A stretch of 63,720 nucleotides of DNA from a virus (Duplodnaviria > Caudoviricetes). Where the stretch lies: the IMG/VR virus record IMGVR_UViG_3300025132_000035, positions 1-63,720 of that record. One strand, given 5' to 3'. The notes beneath the pieces are model-generated. The model did no database searches. It saw nothing but the letters and a program-made list of their open reading frames with translations, and was not told the DNA's origin. Of the stretch, positions 20,356 to 50,647 are shown piece by piece. The translations under genes were made by a program, and so were the position numbers. How positions within the stretch are numbered: the stretch's first letter is position 1; every line of letters begins with the position of its first letter.

Positions 20356-22290
20356 ATGAAATTATCTGATTATATGCCACAACTTCCACAGTTAACTGAA
20401 CGGATGACAACAGTCAATCGACAGATTTCAATGTTGGATATGTTTAAATCAGCTGGAGATGTAGGCGCACCACCACAAATAGGGCTAGATACTGTAGTAA
20501 ATTCTATGGTAAGAAATTCTATTCAACATAGAATGCAACTTATTCGTGATGTTCAGACTATCGTAATGTCAGTTGAGGAAATTCGTGGGCCGCTAAACCA
20601 CATTACCTCTGAAGTATTTAGAAGGGGTTTGCATTTTGCATCAACTGTAGAAAACCCAGACCCAATGCAAAAAGAAAAATTAGAGGACATTAGAGATAGT
20701 TGTAATATCTTTGGGCAATCTTTAGAAGAAGTATTACGACAATTCCATCATGATTTAATATCTTTAGATGATGCTTTTTTGCATTTTAGCAAAGAATATA
20801 AAGATTTAGGTAATGGAAAACTAACTTCAAGGTTGTTAGAAATCAGAAGATTAAACCCAGCAATGGTTGAATTTGATATTGATGCAGAGGGTTTACCAAA
20901 GAATGCTAACTTCCTTTGTCCTATACATAGAGAAACAGCACATACCAAAAGAGGTAAATGCGAAAATGATGATTGTGATATTGAATTACAGCCAGTAATG
21001 TATAAATTAAAATATAGAAACAAAGAAACATTCCTACTTGAAAACGAAGTAGTACACTTATCTAAGTTTAGCCCAAGTGAAACCTATGGTTGGAGTCCAG
21101 TTCTTACGATCTTTGAAAAAGCATTAACATTAATAGGTATGGATAAGAACCTATTCAATTATTTTTTCCAGCGCAAGATGCCAGCTAGTATGTTACTTAT
21201 AACTACTGATGACCCAGAATCATTACGTAGAGAAAGAGAACATATCGCAGCACAAACAAGGGCTGATCCTAACTATATCCCAATGGTTGCAGTTTCATCT
21301 AGGAACCAAAGAGGTAGAGTTGATATGGTACGTATGTTTCATACTTTACAAGAAATGGATTACTTACCTGTTAGGCAAGAGATTCGTGAAAGAGTTGCTG
21401 CTATATGGGGTGTTACAGCTTCTTGGCAAGGCGCACCAGATGCTTTTGGTGGGTTATCTAGCCAAACACAACAGTTAACTGTTATGAGTCGTGTTGTAGA
21501 AGCTGACCAAAGATTGTTTACCGAAAAAGTATTTCCACAATTAATTAAATGTTTAGCCATAACAGATTTTGAAATTGAGTTACCACAACCAGAAGAAAAG
21601 GCTGAAAACACTAAATTGTCTTTTGCTATGCAGAAAATAAACATAGCTTCACAGTTTTCAAAGTTAGGATTTGAAGTATCACTAAAAGAACAAAATGCTG
21701 ATGTTATTGATGCTGAGTTTGTAGTAAGTGGTAAGGCAACTAAAACAGCCAACCTTGCTGAGGAAAAAACAAAACTAGACATTGAAAATCAAAAGAAACA
21801 AATGGAACAAGAAGAAGCTCAACAGCAACAGCAAGAAGCTCAACAGCAACAGCAAGAACAACAGCAACAACAAGAAATGTTTGGAATGTCGGATGATACA
21901 CCAGATATGGATAAGTTAATACCAGATCGTTCTGCTGATAGAAAGTTTAAAGGTAGAACTGGGGGATTAACTCCTAACAGTGCTGACAAAGCACCTAACG
22001 AAGAACGAGATTTAGATAGTTATGCTGAAGCTAGAAGTATGGAACTATCTAAAAACTGGATAGATACTTTAGTAGAAAAAGGATTTACAAGCCCTTTGAT
22101 TAAAGAAGTATCACCTGATCTTAAACAAATGTGGTTTTCTCAAGACAACATTGACTATGTTGCTCAACTATCTAGTAATGGTGTTGGGTTTATTGAAAAA
22201 GCTACTTTCAGTAATCCAGAGGCGTTTAAACACACTAAAGAACAACCAAAAAGCCCTAACCCTATTAAGGTAGACTTAGATGAAAGTTAA
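20356..22290 (+). CDS. Portal protein
   Basis: EVVHLSKFSPS..YGWSP motif; position between terminase and head genes; size. Confidence 0.85.
   Translation: MKLSDYMPQLPQLTERMTTVNRQISMLDMFKSAGDVGAPPQIGLDTVVNSMVRNSIQHRMQLIRDVQTIVMSVEEIRGPLNHITSEVFRRGLHFASTVENPDPMQKEKLEDIRDSCNIFGQSLEEVLRQFHHDLISLDDAFLHFSKEYKDLGNGKLTSRLLEIRRLNPAMVEFDIDAEGLPKNANFLCPIHRETAHTKRGKCENDDCDIELQPVMYKLKYRNKETFLLENEVVHLSKFSPSETYGWSPVLTIFEKALTLIGMDKNLFNYFFQRKMPASMLLITTDDPESLRREREHIAAQTRADPNYIPMVAVSSRNQRGRVDMVRMFHTLQEMDYLPVRQEIRERVAAIWGVTASWQGAPDAFGGLSSQTQQLTVMSRVVEADQRLFTEKVFPQLIKCLAITDFEIELPQPEEKAENTKLSFAMQKINIASQFSKLGFEVSLKEQNADVIDAEFVVSGKATKTANLAEEKTKLDIENQKKQMEQEEAQQQQQEAQQQQQEQQQQQEMFGMSDDTPDMDKLIPDRSADRKFKGRTGGLTPNSADKAPNEERDLDSYAEARSMELSKNWIDTLVEKGFTSPLIKEVSPDLKQMWFSQDNIDYVAQLSSNGVGFIEKATFSNPEAFKHTKEQPKSPNPIKVDLDES
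21814..21873 (+). repeat. Tandem 21-bp-unit poly-Gln repeat in the portal C-terminal tail
   Basis: gaagctcaacagcaacagcaa twice plus a degenerate copy, encoding EAQQQQQEAQQQQQEQQQQQ. Confidence 0.85.
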
Positions 22291-25932: not shown

Positions 25933-25964
25933 ATTTCACACTCCTTTTTATTTACTATAATCAT

Positions 25965-25992
25965 AGTATAACACAATAAATCTATTTGTCAA
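25965..25992 (-). promoter_or_regulatory. Sigma-70-type early promoter
   Basis: TTGACA-N16-TATACT with an extended -10 TG. Confidence 0.7.
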
Positions 25993-26008
25993 CACTTTAT
26001 TTAATAAA

Positions 26009-26038
26009 TAAAAAACCCCTCAATTTAGAGGGGTCTTT
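26009..26038 (-). terminator. Intrinsic terminator
   Basis: acccctc-aattta-gaggggt hairpin with a U tract on the minus strand. Confidence 0.7.
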
Positions 26039-26066
26039 CATATAGTCATAAAGAGAGGTGAAATCT

Positions 26067-26243
26067 TTATGCCATGTTTGTCATTGCATAATCCCAATCT
26101 CTTTTCATTTGAGTTGGGTCTTTTTTCCAAGAATTTATAACTTGTTCTCTTGTCATTTCAAACTCATTACAAATGGTCGGTAATATAAATTCTTTTGTTT
26201 CATGATCTAACTCAAACGTAAATTTTCTATTGCCTTTTCTCAT
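26067..26243 (-). CDS. Small hypothetical protein (58 aa, not in ORF track)
   Basis: AAGGAG RBS; MRKGNRKFTFELDHETKEF...NMA*. Confidence 0.65.
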   Translation of the reverse strand: MRKGNRKFTFELDHETKEFILPTICNEFEMTREQVINSWKKDPTQMKRDWDYAMTNMA

Positions 26244-33156: not shown

Positions 33157-33996
33157 ATGTTAAACCATAAGCTATTAAAACTAGCCATAGACGTTCTTAA
33201 AGAACTTCCACAAGGGGCTGTGTATTCTACTACAAGAAAGCCACCAAAGGGGGCTAAAGTTTTTACAACTACTGGGGGTACAGAATATTGGATGCCTAGC
33301 CAACAAGATAAAAAACCTACTCCACAAAACCAAAAAAATACTAATGAAGCAATAGCTAAACTAGTACAGGAAAAAGTTAAAAGGGGTGACACTGGTGAAG
33401 GTAGAGAAGTTGAACTATCTAAAGATGAATTATCTTACGTCTTGAGTACTGGTAGTTATGCGTTGGTTTCTGGGGGTAGAAACTCAAACATCAAAGAAGA
33501 AGCAGACTTGGATGAACAAGATGAAAAGTTTGTACAACGTCACGAAGAACTTAAATCTGAATTAGTTAATTCAGGTTATGCCCACACCGAAATAACTGGA
33601 CACTATGGGGGTGAGGAGAAATCTTTCCTAGTTATGGTTCACGATCAAGATGAATCAGAAATGAAAGAACTAGGTAAAAAATATAATCAAGACTCTGTAA
33701 TTGTAGCAAATCAAGGCAAACAAAAAATGTTTTTTACCACAGGAGAAAACGAAGGATCATATTTCTCAGGTAGTGGATGGGAACAAACTCAGGATGCCAA
33801 AACAGATTACACATTATTTAAAACTTCTGATGGGACATTAATAAAGTTCTCATTAAATTTTGACTTCGATAATATGAATACTGATGAAGGCGAATCTGCA
33901 CAAATTGAAAAAGCAATCATCGAACAATTTCTACATATCATACATAGAAAACCACCAGATCAAAACTTAAAAAAAATAACGAGGGTATTAGTATAA
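33157..33996 (+). CDS. Protein with SAM-lyase/DUF3293-like domain and an N-terminal leader shared with the protease fusion
   Basis: ALVSGGRN...ELKSEL...GY...ITGHYGGEEKSFLV...ELGKKYNQDSVI resembles phage SAM lyases. Confidence 0.6.
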   Translation: MLNHKLLKLAIDVLKELPQGAVYSTTRKPPKGAKVFTTTGGTEYWMPSQQDKKPTPQNQKNTNEAIAKLVQEKVKRGDTGEGREVELSKDELSYVLSTGSYALVSGGRNSNIKEEADLDEQDEKFVQRHEELKSELVNSGYAHTEITGHYGGEEKSFLVMVHDQDESEMKELGKKYNQDSVIVANQGKQKMFFTTGENEGSYFSGSGWEQTQDAKTDYTLFKTSDGTLIKFSLNFDFDNMNTDEGESAQIEKAIIEQFLHIIHRKPPDQNLKKITRVLV

Positions 33997-37193: not shown

Positions 37194-37361
37194 ATGGAAA
37201 ATAAGGATTTAATAGATAAATTAGCAAAAGCAGCGATCAAAATAAAGATGCTTCAAGAAATTAATGAGGCTCACAGAGAGATGAATGGTGAATTACGAGA
37301 GGAAATAAAAAAACTTAAGGGGGTGAAAAAGCAACACCCCTATGAGAATCAAGTACCTTAA
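37194..37361 (+). CDS. Small coiled-coil protein (55 aa, not in ORF track)
   Basis: AAGGA RBS; MENKDLIDKLAKAAIKIKMLQEINEAH... Confidence 0.6.
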   Translation: MENKDLIDKLAKAAIKIKMLQEINEAHREMNGELREEIKKLKGVKKQHPYENQVP

Positions 37362-37682
37362 AACTAGCACCATAGCTATAAGGTATGTTTTCATAGGGGG
37401 GTTGGTGTGTTGCTTGGCAATTCCAAACTACATTGGAGCATTCTAATATAGTTCAGAGGGTGAATTGCCCAGAAGCTACCTCGTTCGTTGAATAGCTTCA
37501 GTTATTATCCATGCTGTAGTAATTTCTTTTTTAAGGTCTTTACCTTTACATACTATTCTAAAATTCATACTCTACTCCTTTTTATTTAACTAGTGCCTAT
37601 CACAGATGCTAGTAATCGGGTAGCACCAAGATTCCCAAGTTATACGTAATGTATATAAATCTCATTTAAATAGACACTAGTT
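37362..37682 (-). ncRNA. Candidate structured RNA (multi-stem leader, 30-codon ORF, structured 3' part)
   Basis: Downstream of a sigma-70 promoter; several nested inverted repeats, with G-U pairs favouring the minus strand. Confidence 0.45.
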
Positions 37683-44691: not shown

Positions 44692-44726
44692 TTTGATATT
44701 TAAACCAAGAACATAGAACAATAATC

Positions 44727-44754
44727 AGGGGGTTACGAAAGTAGCCCCTTTTTT
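44727..44754 (+). terminator. Intrinsic terminator
   Basis: ggggttac-GAAA-gtagcccc followed by a T tract. Confidence 0.8.
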
Positions 44755-44941
44755 ATTTGCCTAACCACCCCTTGACGTGCTTTTGTCGTGCGATAGCCGC
44801 AATCAAAATACCAAAGAGTATAGTTCCTACCAACAACATTGAGTAATGTATTTCTGTATATCTTCCCAGAGCAATTAATATAGCATCTTCTGCAAAATGT
44901 AAAACACTAACAAAGGTTGCTATGTAACTAAATTTTTTCAT
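44753..44941 (-). CDS. Small two-TM membrane protein
   Basis: Two hydrophobic segments. Confidence 0.7.
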   Translation of the reverse strand: MKKFSYIATFVSVLHFAEDAILIALGRYTEIHYSMLLVGTILFGILIAAIARQKHVKGWLGK

Positions 44942-45117
44942 GGTTGTTTGTTCCTTGCGATTGTAAGATTACTAGCAATAACCATTAAAGTATTGGCATC
45001 TACTTTTGGATATTGCTTTTGTAGTTTCATAAAGTACAAATTAAATGCAGAATAAACATCATCATTTGCCCCTATTGGTTGATCTGACTTATTTAAATAA
45101 ACTCTCTTTATGTCCAT
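44938..45117 (-). CDS. Small hypothetical protein (59 aa, probably leaderless, not in ORF track)
   Basis: ATG 6 nt after TATAAT of the AGTATAATA motif at 45122-45130; ATGA overlap with the next gene. Confidence 0.6.
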   Translation of the reverse strand: MDIKRVYLNKSDQPIGANDDVYSAFNLYFMKLQKQYPKVDANTLMVIASNLTIARNKQP

Positions 45118-45163
45118 ACTTTATTATACTTTATACCAATTTATTTTTATTTTAAAAAAAGTG

Positions 45164-45192
45164 TTGACAATATAATATTTATATAGTACTAT
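45164..45192 (+). promoter_or_regulatory. Sigma-70-type promoter
   Basis: TTGACA-N17-TACTAT preceded by an A tract. Confidence 0.7.
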
Positions 45193-45197
45193 ATATA

Positions 45198-45559
45198 CAT
45201 GAGATGAACTTAAACGATCTGGCACTGCATTAGTAGAAGGATTGAATCAACTTTCTAGAGTTGAACAAGAAATTCGAAGTTTGGAATCCAATGTAACGTT
45301 AAGGGTCTAGAGTAATTGATCTTAAGGGATAGGGGTGGTTAGCACCACACCTAATAGATAAAGGACTGGCAAGTCCTCTGGATAGATCAATGAAGACTAA
45401 TTCTAGGGAAGTGGGGGTTTAAGTTTGGGGACTAGAAAACTCAAACTGATTCCCCTTCCTGACTGGAGTCTTATTTAACAAGAAGGGAGGAAATCATGCT
45501 TTGTTCATAGGACTTATTAAACAAACTTAAAAGAGCCTAAAATTTTAGGCTCTTTTTTT
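45198..45559 (+). ncRNA. Candidate ~360-nt structured non-coding RNA
   Basis: Own promoter and terminator, no substantial ORF, many nested helices. Confidence 0.6.
45529..45559. terminator. Bidirectional intrinsic terminator
   Basis: aaaagagcctaa-aatt-ttaggctctttt followed by a further T run. Confidence 0.85.
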
Positions 45560-45560
45560 A

Positions 45561-46466
45561 TTACAATAACTTTAATTGTTGTGGGGTGAGTTTGGGCAAC
45601 TTTTTTAAGTCAATTAAATTACGAGGATTTTTTAAATAGGATTCACAAAACCACTTAATTGAAGGATTAGTATGTGCCTGTTCTAACACATAATTTAAAT
45701 TACTAGGGTTAATTAATTTCAGGGCTTTATTAGCATATTCGTCATCCCCTATCAATTTATACATTACGCTTAACCTAGCCAACAAATTTTCGGAATGTGT
45801 GAACACTGTATCAGTCATACCTTTTTCATAAGGTGGGTAAGGTAATTCTGGGAGTAGTATTTCTTTCGTTTTGTTTAAACAATATATATATCTATAAGTT
45901 TTAACTTTAAATGCTCGTAATTTATTGTCTAAGTACAGACGATTCTTATTTAAAAATCCTGTTGGTCGCTTTGTATTCTCTAATGGAACTTTATGGAATA
46001 ATTCTTTACTGTTAATATCTTGCAAAAATACAGAATTAGAATGTCCATAATATTTAAAATTAGCTGCTTTATATATTGTTCCACATCCTAATCTACCATC
46101 AGCAAAAGATTGAATAGTATATATATATGGATATAACTTTTTTATAATTTTAAAAGATGCTCCTATTAGCGTGGTTTCAGCATTGTACCCTAATTCGTCA
46201 TCGATCCATAGTCTATTTAACTCTACTACATTTTCTTTATCAAAATCTGGGTTAAGTTTTTTATAACTATTTGGGTTCATTAAATTACCAAATACGGCAG
46301 CACCTAAGAGAGTACCATCTCTAAATACACCTATATTCACTAAACCAAACGAGGTGTTCCATTTATGCGAATAATGATATTTAACCATCATATTCTTTGC
46401 TGTTTGATATGGAATTTCTCGGAAGATTAAGGTGCCATTGGTTTTAGTTTCTTTAATAATTTTCAA
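45561..46466 (-). CDS. Mom-like (GNAT-fold) DNA modification protein
   Basis: KYHYSH...GAAVFG...ELNRLW...IQSFAD...GTIYKAANF.Y.G; likely TTG start at 46466 because the ORF-track start (46613) overlaps the upstream gene. Confidence 0.75.
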   Translation of the reverse strand: MKIIKETKTNGTLIFREIPYQTAKNMMVKYHYSHKWNTSFGLVNIGVFRDGTLLGAAVFGNLMNPNSYKKLNPDFDKENVVELNRLWIDDELGYNAETTLIGASFKIIKKLYPYIYTIQSFADGRLGCGTIYKAANFKYYGHSNSVFLQDINSKELFHKVPLENTKRPTGFLNKNRLYLDNKLRAFKVKTYRYIYCLNKTKEILLPELPYPPYEKGMTDTVFTHSENLLARLSVMYKLIGDDEYANKALKLINPSNLNYVLEQAHTNPSIKWFCESYLKNPRNLIDLKKLPKLTPQQLKLL

Positions 46467-46476
46467 GCTATTACCA

Positions 46477-46740
46477 CTAACAGTTACAAGACCATTCAAA
46501 TAAGGGAGTATTCTCCCCAACATATGCACCCAGAGTATTAAATTCAAACCATTCCAAAGACTCTTTATCACACCAATCATTATCTTCCATAAGTTGTTGA
46601 ATGCATTTTTCACTTGAATAAAGAACCACAGGAATGTTATTTCGAAAACCTATTCCCTTAATTGCCCTATCGTACCCATCTGCAAACAATGCATCAGGGT
46701 TAATTTTTACTATGTATTTTTCAATTATCTTTCTATCCAT
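46477..46740 (-). CDS. Conserved phage hypothetical protein
   Basis: ADGYD.AI.G...Y..EKCI..LM...EWFEFN.LGAYVGE.TP motif; AAGGAG RBS. Confidence 0.8.
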   Translation of the reverse strand: MDRKIIEKYIVKINPDALFADGYDRAIKGIGFRNNIPVVLYSSEKCIQQLMEDNDWCDKESLEWFEFNTLGAYVGENTPLFEWSCNC

Positions 46741-46785: not shown

Positions 46786-47868
46786 CTAAAATAAAGACAT
46801 TTGTTCTTTGCTTTTGGTATCTAGGGTCAAACCCCAATTCTCTAAATCTTGTTTCCATTCTGAGTTAATTTCACCAATATATTCATGAGTATAACAGATT
46901 CTTTTTGTATCAACTCTCCAATGATCAAAACCAGATTTTTTTGATAGACGTCTTGGTTTTAAGTTATGGACTGTTGGTCTCCATAAAGGACTTTTCTCTC
47001 TGTACTCTCCTAACAAAACATTAGAGGTTTTAGTAAACATTCTTTTCCCATTTTGTACATAAAGTTGGCTGATATAATGTGATAGTCTGGTACCAATTCC
47101 TAATCCTTGATATTTAGGTACTGTTACTAATCTATGTGACCTAAAAGCATTTTTAAGACTTCCTGATGGCAATGTCTGAATGGCTTGAAACCCAGCTGGT
47201 TTGCCATCAACATAGGCTTCATAACAACGTGAACTTATGTTTAAATTACCTGTTAAATAATGATGCTTTTTATAATACTCCCATCTTTGATAAGGAACTC
47301 TTTTAATATCAAATTGATAAGATAAATCTAAAGTTTGTTTTTTAAAAGAAGCAGTTTCAACATTATATATCCAGTCTGCTTTTAACCATTCTGTAATATC
47401 CTCGTGACCAGTAGCAACAACTATGTTTTTTCTTGTAATGCCTTTATTAATAGAACTACATATTGATTTCGCAGACTCTCTATCTAGGGTACTGGTAAAT
47501 TCATCTACCAAATAAATTGGCTTGTCTTTTGAAAACGTTAACGCTAGTTTAGCCCTGTATTGTTCTCCCATAGATAAAGTGTCTATTGATCTTATCCATG
47601 TGGGAACGCTGTTTAGCCCAACACTTTTAAAGTAATGAATTGCTTCCTCAGAATCAGAAAAACTTTCGCAAATAGGGTTATTGTCATATGAGTCAAGGTC
47701 TAAAACATCCCCTAAAGATTTTAATATAGTTGTTTTACCACTACCACTTGCACCAATAATGATCCCAACACCAAAGTCTTTTGGAAAAGTTGGAATAAAT
47801 ATTTTTTCCAAATAGTGATCAGATTCTGCCAAATCAAATTTTACTTTTATATCATCTACTATATTCAA
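46786..47868 (-). CDS. ABC-type ATPase fused to a Mom-like GNAT acyltransferase
   Basis: GASGSGKT; LSMGEQYR; VDEFTS.LDR; ATGHED; then KHHYL...RLVTVPKYQGLGIG. Confidence 0.85.
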   Translation of the reverse strand: MNIVDDIKVKFDLAESDHYLEKIFIPTFPKDFGVGIIIGASGSGKTTILKSLGDVLDLDSYDNNPICESFSDSEEAIHYFKSVGLNSVPTWIRSIDTLSMGEQYRAKLALTFSKDKPIYLVDEFTSTLDRESAKSICSSINKGITRKNIVVATGHEDITEWLKADWIYNVETASFKKQTLDLSYQFDIKRVPYQRWEYYKKHHYLTGNLNISSRCYEAYVDGKPAGFQAIQTLPSGSLKNAFRSHRLVTVPKYQGLGIGTRLSHYISQLYVQNGKRMFTKTSNVLLGEYREKSPLWRPTVHNLKPRRLSKKSGFDHWRVDTKRICYTHEYIGEINSEWKQDLENWGLTLDTKSKEQMSLF

Positions 47869-48082
47869 TCTATTACCCCTATTAAAACAAAAGGAACCAT
47901 CATATCAGACTGTAATAAGCCCTTAATGTACAATGGTTCCAGTTGCCATACCAAAGGAGAGAGAGTTTTTTTTGTAGCGTTGTTATTTATCTCTTTTTTC
48001 AATAAGTGCCAGACATAACATATCTGGACTTTAATAAAATAAATGTTCTCTCTCGTGCTATGGTATTACTATATCACAATAA

Positions 48083-48571
48083 TTATGAATAAACAACAGC
48101 AGAATAATCGTAATTTATACTTTGTTGGTTTATTGATAATATTTCAGCACCTAATCTTGTGTGAAACTTGTGAGCCATATCTGTTTTTGGACTCATTGTC
48201 ATAAACTTAGTAACTTCGAAATAGTTTGATTGGATGTAGTCTACTGTACTAAATAACATACGTTTGCCATAACCAGCTTTGTTTGCCCAGATCGTATAAA
48301 ATACAGCTATTGAATCTTTATCATCTGGAGAACAATTGTAGTCACGTAAATCATGTACAGTGGTTGGAATTTCTTTGCAGTAAGCAACACATACTGTTGC
48401 TAAAACCTGATCATCTTTGATAAGGGAATAAACTTCTCTGTCATCGGAAGTTCTAAATAGAGCATCAAGTTCTGGTCTAATGGGGTCATCGTGAATTCTT
48501 TGAAGGGCTAAGTGGTGGTTTCTTTCTAATAAATCCTCAGTCATGTTTCTATCTCCTGTTTTCTTTACCAC
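48083..48571 (-). CDS. GNAT-fold hypothetical protein
   Basis: DDPIRP...AVFYTIW...GYGKRM...TMSPKTDMA.KFH..LGA; likely start ATG 48544. Confidence 0.6.
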   Translation of the reverse strand: MVKKTGDRNMTEDLLERNHHLALQRIHDDPIRPELDALFRTSDDREVYSLIKDDQVLATVCVAYCKEIPTTVHDLRDYNCSPDDKDSIAVFYTIWANKAGYGKRMLFSTVDYIQSNYFEVTKFMTMSPKTDMAHKFHTRLGAEILSINQQSINYDYSAVVYS

Positions 48572-48585
48572 GTTCTTAGTTCACG

Positions 48586-48789
48586 TTATTCTTCCCTTTT
48601 TTTGCCTGATCGATCAAACTGGTATTGTTTCAAATCCCAACAATCAAGGCATAACCCATTTCCTAAGATTTGTGGTTCAATGTTGCCACATCTTTTATAT
48701 TTAGCACAGATTCCATAAGATTCAGTAGGTAGCTGAACTGGGTTAAACATATAAGCATAAACAGGTTTACCCTTACGAGCAGACATCAA
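48586..48789 (-). CDS. Small zinc-finger protein
   Basis: C....RC...GLCLDCWD. Confidence 0.65.
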   Translation of the reverse strand: MMSARKGKPVYAYMFNPVQLPTESYGICAKYKRCGNIEPQILGNGLCLDCWDLKQYQFDRSGKKREE

Positions 48790-48974
48790 ATTTTTAATAT
48801 TTCTAACTCATCTCTCCAGATTTCTGCATTTCTTGATTTCTGGGTTCTCAGTTCAACTCGACCCTTAAAATCAAATCTCATATTTTGTATGAGCCTTGTT
48901 ACTTTCTTTGCATCTTCTGAATCGCTAAGTTCTACTCTTATGTAATCTTTAAAAACTTCTTTTCTTAATCCCAA
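48786..48974 (-). CDS. Hypothetical protein
   Basis: AAGGAG RBS with TTG start. Confidence 0.65.
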   Translation of the reverse strand: MGLRKEVFKDYIRVELSDSEDAKKVTRLIQNMRFDFKGRVELRTQKSRNAEIWRDELEILKI

Positions 48975-49128
48975 ACTAAAATCTCCTTTTCTTTTGTAGG
49001 GAGATCGTAGGCTTTTAATCTCCCTCGATATGGATTATGACCACTTTACACCCTTTACTCTGCTACGCTATGGGTACCATGTAGTCAGAATAAATCTACC
49101 ATCCGACCAAGTAAAGTACCATATACTT

Positions 49129-49137
49129 TATTATACT
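49129..49137 (-). promoter_or_regulatory. Putative late promoter AGTATAATA
   Basis: Intergenic; followed by a ~150-nt hairpin-rich leader. Confidence 0.5.
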
Positions 49138-49157
49138 TATAATACTAAGTTTTTATT

Positions 49158-49454
49158 TTATGTCAAATTTTCATCATCAGTAAATGCTTTTAAAAATACG
49201 TCAGGAATCTTGGTTGGTTCCTCTATTTCTTCAGGTTTTTTGCCTGTCATTTTTTGCCACATTGAATTGTATTGTGCTTGATGCAAAACATCACCATTAA
49301 TTGTTGTTTCAAAACGTTTCGCAATAGTTGATAACAACTCAAACATTTTTTCATCTTCAGGTAAACCCTGTTCAACAGTAATAGTAATATGTGGTAATTT
49401 GTGTTTCTTTAACGTTGTTAAAATGTATTCTCTAAAGGCATCATTAAATTTCAT
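49158..49454 (-). CDS. Hypothetical protein
   Basis: ATGA overlap with nadA. Confidence 0.75.
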   Translation of the reverse strand: MKFNDAFREYILTTLKKHKLPHITITVEQGLPEDEKMFELLSTIAKRFETTINGDVLHQAQYNSMWQKMTGKKPEEIEEPTKIPDVFLKAFTDDENLT

Positions 49455-50647
49455 AGTACTAGCATCCTATTCAAAGCACGTTTAGCGTAATATTTAGTTT
49501 CTTCATCAACCTCTATTATATTAACAGGTTTTTTGTCATCATACATTATACTTTCTAAAACCCACAATAAATAAGCTGGATGAATCCTATACATTGTGGC
49601 ACATGGACACACCATAGAATCAAGACAAAATATTGTTTTGTCTGGGTTGGTTTTAGCTAATCTATTAACAAGATTTATTTCTGTCCCAATTGCCCAAATA
49701 GATTTTGGTTTAGAGTTATTAACCATGTTTATTATTGCCTCAGTTGAGCCAGTTCTGTCAGCTTTCATGACAACATCATTAGTACATTCAGGATGAACAA
49801 CAACTTTCACATTAGGATACTTTTGACGTGCCATTTCTATTTGTTTTGTTGTAAATCTAGTGTGAACCGAACAATGCCCTTGCCAAAGAATTACTGTGGC
49901 TTTTGTTAATTCTTCTAGTGTATGCCCACCTAAAGGTTTGTTAGGGTTCCAAACAATTATCTGGTCATCTGGAATATCCCATTTTTTAGCAACATTTCTC
50001 CCTAAGTGTTGATCTGGTAAAAAGAATATTTTGTTTCCTTTATCCATTGCCCATTTAAATGCTTTAGTTGCATTAGAACTTGTGCAAATAATCCCCTTGT
50101 TTCTACCACATAGTGCTTTGATCTCAGCAGTAGAGTTCATATATGCTACTGGAATAACATCAACCCAAGAACCAACATTGGCTAAAATATCTAACCAAGC
50201 ATCTTGAACTTTCTCAGTTGGAGCCATATCAGCCATTGAACAACCAGCTGCTAAATTAGGCAATATAACTTTTTGCCAATCATCACTAACCACATCAGCT
50301 GTTTCTGCCATAAACCTTACACCACAAAAAACGATCCATTTAGATTTTTGTATTGCTGAGTATTGAGAGAGTTTAAACGAATCCCCTGTTACATCTGCAA
50401 ATTGGATTACTTCCTCTCTTTGGTAATGATGCCCAAGAATAGTTACTGCTGTTGAAAGTTTTGCTTTTGCACTAAATATTCGTTCTTTTATTACTTGGGG
50501 ATCAAGACGTAAATATGCTTGTGGAACTTCTTGCCAGTTCACATTTATTTCAAGTTCTTCTATTAGTGGTTTTGTTACCAACTGAGATTCTTCTTGGCAG
50601 AATGCTGCCTGTTCTAACTCTGTAACAGGTATTCGAGTTACCATCAA
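49451..50647 (-). CDS. nadA: Quinolinate synthase A (4Fe-4S)
   Basis: GHHYQR; GDSF.LS; FCGV.FMAETA; AGCSMADM; YMNS; CTSSNA; PDQHLGRN; G.CSVH; HPEC; GST; GTE; CPCATM. Confidence 0.95.
   Translation of the reverse strand: MMVTRIPVTELEQAAFCQEESQLVTKPLIEELEINVNWQEVPQAYLRLDPQVIKERIFSAKAKLSTAVTILGHHYQREEVIQFADVTGDSFKLSQYSAIQKSKWIVFCGVRFMAETADVVSDDWQKVILPNLAAGCSMADMAPTEKVQDAWLDILANVGSWVDVIPVAYMNSTAEIKALCGRNKGIICTSSNATKAFKWAMDKGNKIFFLPDQHLGRNVAKKWDIPDDQIIVWNPNKPLGGHTLEELTKATVILWQGHCSVHTRFTTKQIEMARQKYPNVKVVVHPECTNDVVMKADRTGSTEAIINMVNNSKPKSIWAIGTEINLVNRLAKTNPDKTIFCLDSMVCPCATMYRIHPAYLLWVLESIMYDDKKPVNIIEVDEETKYYAKRALNRMLVL

What the first reader, a model, noticed from the sequence alone, without database searches (positions are those of the whole stretch)
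45164..45559. Unrecognised ~360-nt structured RNA with its own promoter and terminator
Seen: TTGACA-N17-TACTAT promoter and a strong terminator enclose DNA in which the ATGs I traced open only tiny ORFs. Nested helices include tagaagg/ctttcta; ttgatct/agatcaa closing two hairpins (taggggtggt/accacaccta and aggact/agtcct); aagact/agtctt closing ggaag.ggg/ccccttcc and agtttg/caaact; and long-range tgaacaag (45262) with tttgttca (45500). I see no tRNA or tmRNA ends. Inference: a multi-domain phage ncRNA of a class I do not recognise, made by host RNA polymerase and convergent with the DNA-modification block.
Basis: partly seen in the sequence, partly recalled or inferred. Interest (0 to 1): 0.78.

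Follow-up and report, generated by a model that had tools for sequence, protein, structure and literature searches.

The report
Unclassified non-coding RNA unit, marine phage
A 430-base insert in an uncultured marine phage carries its own promoter and terminator around a well-folding stretch that codes for no protein and matches no known RNA family, so it is probably a small stand-alone RNA gene, but nothing yet proves that its fold matters or shows what it does.

Summary
A TTGACA-N17-TACTAT promoter-like site (45164-45192) and a 12-bp terminator with a T7 tail (45529-45563) enclose about 330 nt. This stretch has no ORF above 22 codons, no tRNA or tmRNA, a local GC peak, and a fold better than shuffles (z -4.0; -2.5 without the terminator).

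Rfam 15 gives nothing: 0 hits at E<=10 once the terminator is removed.

The unit 45132-45562 behaves as a separate module. One marine relative lacks it together with Mom. Another entity carries it next to a different neighbour.

Contigs from two metatranscriptome studies lie wholly inside it and none covers the left flank, which is a weak sign of transcription.

Limits:
- I found no diverged homologue in 32 kin phage records, 85 Mom-linked loci, or 40 loci from pattern scans, so covariation could not be tested.
- The few natural variants preserve the fold no better than random mutations.
- Both strands fold equally well.

Verdict: probably a genuine stand-alone phage RNA gene, an "RNA moron" of an unrecognised class. 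Function is unknown. My best guess is a stable trans-acting, protein-binding RNA made early by host polymerase. A transcribed recombination scar remains a serious rival.

The parts
45132..45562 (+). Whole insertable unit (promoter, non-coding body, terminator)
   Evidence: Marine contig L102 joins window 46478 directly to 45131, so it lacks Mom and this unit. In DNA run X14 a 2027-nt contig follows the window up to 45562 and then runs on unlike it (tables 7 and 8). In run X8 a contig spans 45278-45646, which keeps the junction with Mom.
45144..45192 (+). A/T-rich upstream stretch, -35 TTGACA (45164-69) and -10 TACTAT (45187-92). The start is predicted near 45199 (inferred).
   Evidence: 10 of 12 positions, spacer 17. 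The two variants seen here, 45171 and 45183, fall in the spacer and not in the hexamers. The 21-nt string around the -35 is unique in the window.
45200..45311 (+). 5' part: poorly defined fold and the most variable stretch. It holds the competing hairpins 45234-40/45251-57 and 45247-53/45258-64, and two TCTAGAGT copies.
   Evidence: Nine variant positions including a +T insertion. The centroid fold leaves most of it unpaired.
45315..45391 (+). Three-way-junction domain: closing helix 45315-22/45384-91, hairpin 45330-53 (one G.A mismatch), hairpin 45362-77
   Evidence: Present in both the MFE and the centroid folds. The only variant seen is 45340, in a loop.
45393..45472 (+). Long bulged hairpin: 45393-98/45467-72, 45406-11/45455-60, 45413-19/45448-54, 45422-29/45440-47, with a 10-nt loop
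   Evidence: Variants: 45460 turns G.U into G-C; 45430, 45462 and 45463 are unpaired; the 45413 deletion sits in a G run; 45447 breaks an end pair.
45479..45510 (+). Purine-rich Shine-Dalgarno-like AAGAAGGGAGGAAATC, then ATG (45496) opening only four codons (MLCS) before a stop
   Evidence: Read. It can pair instead with CCCTTCCTG at 45453-61 (I13). Variants change codons 2 and 4.
45511..45528 (+). A/U-rich linker. CAAACTT(AAA) here is complementary to AAGTTTG at both 45277-83 and 45418-27.
   Evidence: (I6, a 10-nt perfect match; D7). A variant at 45526 breaks both pairings.
45529..45563 (+). Intrinsic terminator, 12-bp stem with T7 tail. It can also act on the - strand behind Mom.
   Evidence: It is kept in the X14 contig that lacks Mom, and it is absent behind the 97%-identical Mom copy of L064.

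Best explanation
The stretch 45132-45562 is a self-contained accessory transcription unit, an 'RNA moron', in an uncultured marine tailed phage of a bacterium. It sits between the gene for an 87-residue protein plus Mom on one side and a gene for a 59-residue protein on the other.

Proposed mechanism:
- A sigma-70-type promoter lets host RNA polymerase start near 45199 on the + strand.
- The intrinsic terminator at 45529-45563 ends a transcript of about 330-360 nt that encodes no protein.
- Its better-defined part is a two-domain core, a three-way junction at 45315-91 and a long bulged hairpin at 45393-45472. This core is followed by an exposed purine-rich Shine-Dalgarno-like tract, an A/U-rich linker, and the terminator hairpin with its U tail.
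- I take it to act in trans as a stable structured RNA that binds a host or phage protein, as a decoy, sponge or scaffold, early in infection.

Shown: the anatomy, the absence of coding capacity, the module behaviour, the lack of any Rfam match, and the presence in RNA libraries.
Inferred: the strand, the ends, the polymerase, and the whole mode of action.
For: - No ORF above 22 codons. Four single-base indels occur among natural variants (table 4).
- Promoter and terminator are in place. The terminator's T7 tail lies on the + strand, and it travels with the unit rather than with Mom.
- Fold z -3.99 and a local GC peak.
- Present/absent polymorphism: L102 lacks the unit. A high-depth X14 contig carries it with another right-hand neighbour, and X8 carries it with Mom.
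- 20 of 24 listed runs from 12 studies hold part of it. Six of these are RNA libraries.
- One whole RNA-run contig from each of two studies lies inside it: X15 at 45248-45416 with 0 differences, and X17 at 45217-45463. No RNA contig lies on 44841-45199, which DNA run X14 does cover.
- Rfam: 0 matches at gathering score and 0 at E<=10 without the terminator.
- In the hairpin 45247-64, both variants (45250, 45264) turn A-U into G.U, and 45460 turns G.U into G-C.
Against: - No homologue beyond near-identical copies was found, so there is no covariation: 0 of 32 kin records, 0 of 85 loci, 0 of 40 pattern loci.
- Four natural haplotype fragments keep the MFE no better than random changes of the same kind. 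The fraction of random sets folding at least as well was 0.40-0.73.
- Variants are not depleted in paired positions: 3 of 100 paired against 4 of 65 unpaired, Fisher p 0.44.
- The - strand folds as well relative to shuffles.
- Without the terminator the fold is only z -2.46.
- Promoter-like matches are common in this DNA.
- RNA-run contigs cannot show strand, ends or level, and DNA carry-over is not excluded (header).
- No partner or target was found. The best complementarity elsewhere in the phage is at chance level.
Confidence: 0.5

Rival explanations
1. Transcribed but functionless scar. A promoter and a terminator, brought together by the frequent cassette exchange in this accessory region, enclose leftover sequence such as remains of a + strand gene. 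The fold and GC content are by-products.
For: - The region is a recombination hot spot. Mom moves as a cassette with breakpoints at its gene ends: L062 and L064 are 97% identical with unrelated flanks, and L102 lacks it.
- GC and G-over-C skew equal those of + strand genes nearby.
- A strong ribosome site opens only four codons, as after a deletion.
- Variants do not spare the fold.
- No homologue exists outside a narrow clade.
Against: - Frames carry about 10 stops in 120 codons, so no recent gene is visible.
- Stop-free stretches match nothing specific. The only hit is phrog_1744 at E 0.006, and that profile also rings in 13 of 14 control genomes.
- The unit is kept at 97-100% identity in different genomic contexts and in 12 studies.
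- RNA contigs cover it and not its flank.
Confidence: 0.25
2. Cis-acting switch. The structured body, the exposed ribosome site with its four-codon ORF, and the competing pairings around the linker decide whether transcription stops at the terminator or runs on antisense into the convergent cargo gene. Here that gene is Mom, whose relatives are known from recall to be tightly controlled in phage Mu.
For: - Mutually exclusive pairings exist. AAGTTTG occurs at 45277 and 45421 and can pair with CAAACT at 45442 or 45522. AACTTAAAC at 45207 is complementary to 45417-25. CCCTTCCTG at 45453 can pair with the ribosome site at 45479-87 (I6, I7, I13, D4, D7).
- The mini-ORF stops 18 nt before the terminator stem.
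- The next gene is convergent.
Against: - The terminator is strong, 12 bp at -14.7 kcal/mol with a T7 tail.
- The same unit stands next to a different neighbour in X14.
- Variants at 45526 and 45447, and in the 45207 copy, break these pairings without visible compensation.
- No ligand-binding family matches.
Confidence: 0.12
3. DNA-level element. The inverted repeats and the repeated TCTAG palindromes are protein-binding or recombination sites, such as operators, an origin, or a cassette exchange site, and not RNA structure.
For: - TCTAG occurs 3 times against 0.3 expected, and CTAG 4 times against 1.1.
- Both strands fold alike.
- The helices are almost all Watson-Crick and so are symmetric between strands.
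- The unit borders cassette breakpoints.
Against: - The breakpoints lie at the ends of the unit, not inside it.
- There are no iterons or long direct repeats.
- Promoter and terminator frame it neatly.
- It is found in RNA libraries.
Confidence: 0.06
4. It encodes a very small protein: the 22-codon TTG ORF at 45242-45310, or the four-codon ORF behind the strong ribosome site.
For: The ribosome site GGGAGG lies 5 nt before an ATG. The 35-residue stop-free stretch looks like a coiled coil.
Against: - A natural variant inserts one base after 45275, inside the 22-codon ORF.
- Codons 2 and 4 of the mini-ORF change residue in a variant.
- The TTG start has no properly spaced ribosome site.
- No specific family matches.
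Confidence: 0.03

Closest known systems
Morons of tailed phages (an extra gene with its own promoter and terminator, inserted between two genes of a relative; concept recalled from the lambdoid phage literature, not read here)
   Same: It has its own promoter-like site and terminator. It is present in the window and absent at the same junction in relative L102. It lies in an accessory region with Mom and other modification genes.
   Different: The cargo is not a protein gene but a non-coding, well-folding 330 nt.
Large ornate phage-associated RNAs GOLLD and ROOL (Rfam families; only the search listing of PMC12286853 was seen)
   Same: These are stand-alone structured RNA genes of unknown function, often carried by phages. 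Palindromic loop motifs that could mediate self-association are present here too (CTAG 4 times).
   Different: No match to either family at E<=10. This RNA is about 330 nt, against about 600-800 nt recalled for those families. There is no covariation support and no wide distribution.
Terminator-ended trans-acting small RNAs of bacteria and phages (Hfq/ProQ-type 3' module; recalled)
   Same: An A/U-rich single-stranded tract, a G+C hairpin and a U7 tail at the 3' end. It also has its own sigma-70-type promoter.
   Different: It is three to four times longer than typical members. No target complementarity above chance was found in the phage. The host is unknown, so host targets could not be searched.
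CsrB/RsmZ-type protein sponges (recalled; Rfam families)
   Same: Size of about 350 nt, own promoter and terminator, and excess GGA (11 against 6.3 +/- 2.1 expected).
   Different: None of the hairpin end loops in the modelled core carries a whole GGA. The GGA motifs sit in junctions, in stems, or with one base in a stem and two in a loop. No Rfam match.
Candidate structured RNAs of viruses predicted from IMG/VR (Fremin et al. 2023, PMC10690425; abstract and outline read)
   Same: The same kind of object and the same source collection.
   Different: That screen needed clusters with covariation. I found no second copy in IMG/VR with two exact patterns and one junction pattern. Its supplementary lists were not open to me, so I cannot say whether this RNA is in them.

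Membership tests
Any Rfam 15 family | Score at or above the family's gathering threshold | tested here: not met
   0 matches in the whole window. The 23 sub-threshold matches around the terminator reach at best 29.1 bits where 60 are needed. 0 matches at E<=10 on 45195-45528, both strands.
tRNA / tmRNA | Cloverleaf or tRNA-like ends with a tag reading frame | tested here: not met
   ARAGORN finds 0 genes in the window.
Moron (autonomous accessory unit) | Own promoter and own terminator | tested here: met
   Consensus matches at 45164-92 and 45529-56. This is sequence evidence only; no transcript ends were mapped.
Moron (autonomous accessory unit) | Present in one phage and absent at the same junction in a relative | tested here: met
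   L102 joins 46478 to 45131 at 90-93% flank identity. That gap also removes Mom.
Riboswitch / leader RNA | A regulated gene downstream in cis | tested here: not met
   Only a four-codon ORF, then the terminator, then a convergent gene.
Retron msr-msd RNA | Adjacent reverse transcriptase | tested here: not met
   No RVT_1 match at E<=1 in the whole phage in six frames. The control rings in 4 of 14 genomes.
TnpB/IscB guide (omega) RNA | Adjacent RNA-guided nuclease | tested here: not met
   No PF07282 match at E<=1 in the phage. Neighbours are Mom and small proteins. Only this one nuclease domain was searched.
CsrB-type sponge | Many GGA motifs displayed in hairpin loops | tested here: not met
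   11 GGA in total. Of the 6 in the modelled core, 3 lie in junctions or internal loops, 2 in stems, and 1 spans a stem end and a loop. No end loop carries a whole GGA.
Structured functional RNA in general | Compensatory base changes among homologues | tested here: inconclusive
   No diverged homologue was found. The near-identical variants give 0 double changes and three wobble-compatible changes, and they preserve the fold no better than random changes.
Hfq-type small RNA | Binding to Hfq and base pairing with targets | not testable with these tools
   Only the 3' module is visible in the sequence. The host is unknown.

The most novel reading that the evidence does not exclude
This is a new class of horizontally exchanged, phage-borne structured RNA gene, common enough in the sea to be assembled from metatranscriptomes. 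It would work either as a decoy against a host defence or regulatory protein, or as a ribosome- or ligand-sensing switch that gates antisense transcription into a neighbouring, potentially toxic DNA-modification gene.
Probability: 0.25. Interest if true: 0.7.

Novelty: new variant of a known kind. Interest (0 to 1): 0.45.

Why it matters
Accessory regions of phages are mined almost only for proteins. If this is a promoter-to-terminator unit whose cargo is a folded RNA, one that moves between marine phages and is visible in ocean RNA libraries, it would add an RNA entry to the list of phage accessory or counter-defence elements. It would also give a concrete, short construct to test. If it is only a transcribed scar, it is a useful warning: promoter, terminator, GC peak and a good folding score together still do not make a functional RNA.

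Tried and rejected
Searches for homologues:
- Exact patterns from the core in IMG/VR: 0 and 0 matches.
- A pattern built from the three junction strands with free helices gave 5 IMG/VR and 35 genome loci. That is about the number I estimated by hand from pattern length and collection size (not computed in a call). None scored with the models.
- blastn against 50,697 phage records matched only 48 nt of the promoter in Streptococcus and Staphylococcus phages. The gene behind that promoter in phage SG586P1 is unrelated.
- nhmmer and blastn against 117 loci gave nothing beyond chance 13-33-mers.
- Searches with the neighbours: 27 + 58 Mom loci, 0 for the 59-residue protein, and 0 for the ATPase-acetyltransferase.
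- Covariance model R1 had the basal helix of the long hairpin shifted by one column, which I found. Its only hits were 15.1-bit matches inside portal genes. I rebuilt it as R2 and repeated all searches.

Other tests:
- Decayed-gene test. Stop-free stretches gave only phrog_1744 at E 0.006, a profile that also rings in 13 of 14 control genomes.
- A search for antisense targets inside the phage gave only chance-level matches.
- The non-coding stretch behind the Mom copy of L064 is not an analogue: z -0.01 and no Rfam hit.
- Retron and guide-RNA readings: no reverse transcriptase and no TnpB domain.

Not available or uninformative:
- Parts of the laid stretch without RNA-contig cover to the right of 45562 say nothing, because the common DNA form lacks Mom there.

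Full report
**What the window is.** The window is a complete 63,720-bp virus record with direct terminal repeats and 34.6% G+C.
- It encodes a DnaB-like helicase, a family A DNA polymerase, RecA, ribonucleotide reductase, terminase, portal, an SU10-like capsid protein and a SAM-lyase-like protein.
- Most genes are preceded by AGGAG-like ribosome sites, so the host is a bacterium that uses Shine-Dalgarno pairing. The host itself is unknown.
- The nearest cultured relatives are remote: the portal is 27-29% identical to haloarchaeal tailed viruses, and the polymerase 24-28% identical to assorted phages.
- Relatives by portal, and the sequencing runs that hold the region, carry marine labels or accession styles.

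**The observation.**
- TTGACA-N17-TACTAT lies at 45164-45192, matching 10 of 12 positions.
- The hairpin AAAAGAGCCTAAAA/TTTTAGGCTCTTTT lies at 45529-45556. It is 12 bp and -14.7 kcal/mol. On the + strand it is followed by seven T; on the - strand by TTTT then AAG.
- No ORF longer than 22 codons lies between them on either strand.
- ARAGORN finds no tRNA or tmRNA.
- The 360 nt fold at -104.7 kcal/mol against -83.6 +/- 5.3 for dinucleotide shuffles, z -3.99.
- G+C rises to 0.39-0.425, against 0.23-0.31 beside it.
- Two domains appear in every fold: a three-way junction at 45315-45391 and a long bulged hairpin at 45393-45472.

**Limits on the observation.**
- Without promoter and terminator the fold is only z -2.46.
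- The reverse strand scores z -4.12.
- Promoter-like matches are as frequent as in shuffled DNA here.
- In a scan of 224 window-strands in all non-coding gaps, two other places score better. One of them is a plain terminator.
- The 5' third is poorly defined.

**Not a known RNA and not a gene remnant that I can recognise.**
- Rfam 15 gives no match at gathering score in the window.
- The 23 weak matches in a 901-nt scan (best 29.1 bits, 60 needed) cluster on and around the terminator. With the terminator cut off there are 0 matches at E<=10 on both strands.
- Six-frame reading shows about ten stops per frame.
- Four stop-free stretches of 26-39 residues match nothing in Pfam. In PHROGs they match only phrog_1744 at E 0.006. 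That profile also rings in 13 of 14 control genomes and inside another gene of this phage, so I set it aside.
- The phage has no reverse transcriptase and no TnpB-type domain. This removes the retron and guide-RNA readings.

**The unit is a module.**
- A TARA contig (L102) is 93% identical to window 47998-46478 and then continues at 45131-44701 at 90% identity. It therefore lacks 45132-46477, which is Mom together with the promoter, the non-coding body and the terminator. About 26 unrelated bases take their place.
- Two other marine contigs carry Mom at 97% identity with unrelated sequence on both sides, with breakpoints at 46472 and 45560, the ends of the gene. So Mom is one cassette and the non-coding unit is another.
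- Laying public contigs on 44700-46100 shows that in DNA run X14 a 2027-nt contig of depth 81 follows the window to 45562 and then runs on unlike it. Another loose end lies at 44835. The contig that reaches into Mom has depth 9.
- So a second, more abundant entity shares only about 44835-45562 with the window: the 59-residue gene, the start of the 62-residue gene, and the non-coding unit including its terminator.
- In run X8, from another study, a contig spans 45278-45646, which is the window's own junction with Mom.
- The terminator therefore belongs to the non-coding unit. This fits the classical description of a moron (recalled, not read), except that the cargo is not a protein gene.

**Transcription.**
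- Of 24 runs listed for 45132-45560, 20 hold part of it, from 12 studies. Fourteen hold at least half of the sampled words. Six are RNA libraries with shares of 0.08-0.36.
- Of the two RNA runs I laid, X15 gives one 172-nt contig on 45248-45416 with no difference. X17 gives one 246-nt contig on 45217-45463 with six differences and one gap.
- No RNA contig lies on 44841-45199, which the DNA run covers. The X17 pieces at 44723-44829 are poor matches with loose ends.
- Contigs cannot show strand, ends or level, and DNA carry-over is possible, so this is a weak hint of a transcript more abundant than its neighbours. It is not proof.

**The search for homologues, and the covariation test that could not be made.**
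- No second copy turned up in IMG/VR by two exact core patterns, nor in 50,697 phage records beyond a 48-nt promoter match.
- Nothing appeared in 117 fetched loci by nhmmer or blastn.
- I built a covariance model of the 165-nt core. The first version (R1) had one helix shifted by a column, which I noticed. Its only hits were 15.1-bit matches inside portal genes.
- The corrected model R2 finds only the window itself among the window plus 85 loci next to Mom relatives. It finds nothing in the 32 records that share the portal, two of them 83-86% complete genomes.
- It also finds nothing in the 40 loci that match a pattern of the three junction strands with free helices.
- The RNA is thus confined, as far as I can see, to a narrow set of closely related or recombining marine phages.

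**What the near-identical variants say.**
- For a non-coding reading: four single-base indels (after 45275, at 45413, at 45463, after 45542). Changes of codons 2 and 4 of the four-codon ORF.
- Mildly for the local helices: 45250 and 45264 turn A-U into G.U in one hairpin. 45460 turns G.U into G-C. 45340, 45430, 45462 and 45463 are unpaired. The promoter variants 45171 and 45183 lie in the spacer.
- Against: 45447 breaks an end pair. 45287 and 45304 break a predicted 5' helix. 45526 breaks both pairings of the linker.
- Taken together, variants are not depleted in paired positions (3 of 100 against 4 of 65, p 0.44).
- Four haplotype fragments keep the folding energy no better than random changes of the same kind. 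The fraction of random sets folding at least as well was 0.58, 0.73, 0.40 and 0.58.
- Table 3 lists only variants above a 5% share, so I make no claim that the core is invariant.

**How it most likely works.**
- Shown: a non-coding, well-folding unit with promoter and terminator consensus, exchanged as a module and present in RNA libraries.
- Inferred: host RNA polymerase starts near 45199 and stops at the terminator, giving a 330-360-nt RNA. Its 3' end (A/U-rich tract, hairpin, U7) resembles the stabilising and chaperone-binding module of bacterial small RNAs.
- The body shows an excess of GGA (11 against 6.3 +/- 2.1) and of the palindrome TCTAG (3 against 0.3). It also shows an exposed GGGAGG-ATG. 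These features suit protein or ribosome binding more than antisense pairing, for which I found no target in the phage.
- I therefore put a trans-acting, protein-binding accessory RNA first, at 0.5 for a genuine functional RNA gene. The specific decoy mechanism is much less certain.
- A transcribed scar comes second, at 0.25.
- A cis switch that gates antisense read-through into the convergent cargo gene comes third, at 0.12. The mutually exclusive pairings suggest it, but the strong terminator, the uncompensated variants and the different neighbour in X14 weaken it.
- DNA-level and small-protein readings trail, at 0.06 and 0.03.

**Comparison with what is known.**
- It works like a moron and meets both tested criteria for one. 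It differs in that the cargo is RNA.
- It resembles the ornate phage-associated RNAs GOLLD and ROOL only in being a stand-alone structured RNA of unknown role. It is not a member of either family.
- It is not a CsrB-type sponge, because none of its end loops carries a whole GGA.
- It is not a riboswitch leader, because there is no downstream gene.
- The IMG/VR screen of Fremin et al. (PMC10690425; abstract and outline read) predicts thousands of such candidates.

**Verdict.** This is a credible but unproven new phage RNA gene, of moderate interest. The key proof, covariation or a mapped transcript, is still missing, and the little variation available does not help.

Noticed in passing
window 45561-46613 (- strand), L062, L064, L102: Mom moves as a cassette. 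Two marine contigs carry it at 97% identity with unrelated flanks, with breakpoints at 46472 and 45560, and a close relative (L102) lacks it. The listed 350-codon ORF overlaps the 87-codon gene, and homologues align only from residues 45-52. The true start is therefore probably near 46481.
   Followed up: partly
window 46786-50647 (- strand): Next to Mom lie an ABC-type ATPase fused to a GNAT acetyltransferase (phrog_11143), a small protein with a weak malonyl-CoA-decarboxylase-like match, and a quinolinate-synthase-like protein (NadA, 2.3e-99). Together they form a candidate DNA hypermodification cluster. A SAM-lyase-like protein sits at 33157-33996.
   Followed up: no
window 20356-22290: The only cultured relatives of the portal protein in 50,697 phage records are haloarchaeal tailed viruses (HVTV-1, HCTV-1, HCTV-5; 27-29% identity over 45% of the protein), although the replication genes are of bacterial type.
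   Followed up: partly
window 37276-37555 and 25933-26172: Two other non-coding places fold better than the finding in the gap scan: z -5.4 with GC 0.42, and z -10.1. The second contains a plain strong terminator next to small - strand genes. The first was not examined further.
   Followed up: partly
window 44835-45562: In DNA run X14 a much more abundant entity shares only this 0.7 kb with the window at 95-99% identity (59-residue gene, start of the 62-residue membrane-like gene, and the non-coding unit). The unit and the divergent 59-residue gene therefore travel together in two contexts, while L102 has the 59-residue gene without the unit.
   Followed up: partly
window 45143-45192: A - strand promoter-like site (TTGTCA-16-AAAAAT) overlaps the -35 of the + strand promoter. 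The unit and the 59-residue gene may therefore be driven by back-to-back promoters within about 80 bp.
   Followed up: no
L064 451-1045: Behind the Mom copy of another marine contig lies about 600 nt without a convincing ORF. It has two TTGACA/TATAAT-like promoters and a G/C hairpin with a T run, but no unusual fold (z -0.01) and no Rfam match.
   Followed up: partly
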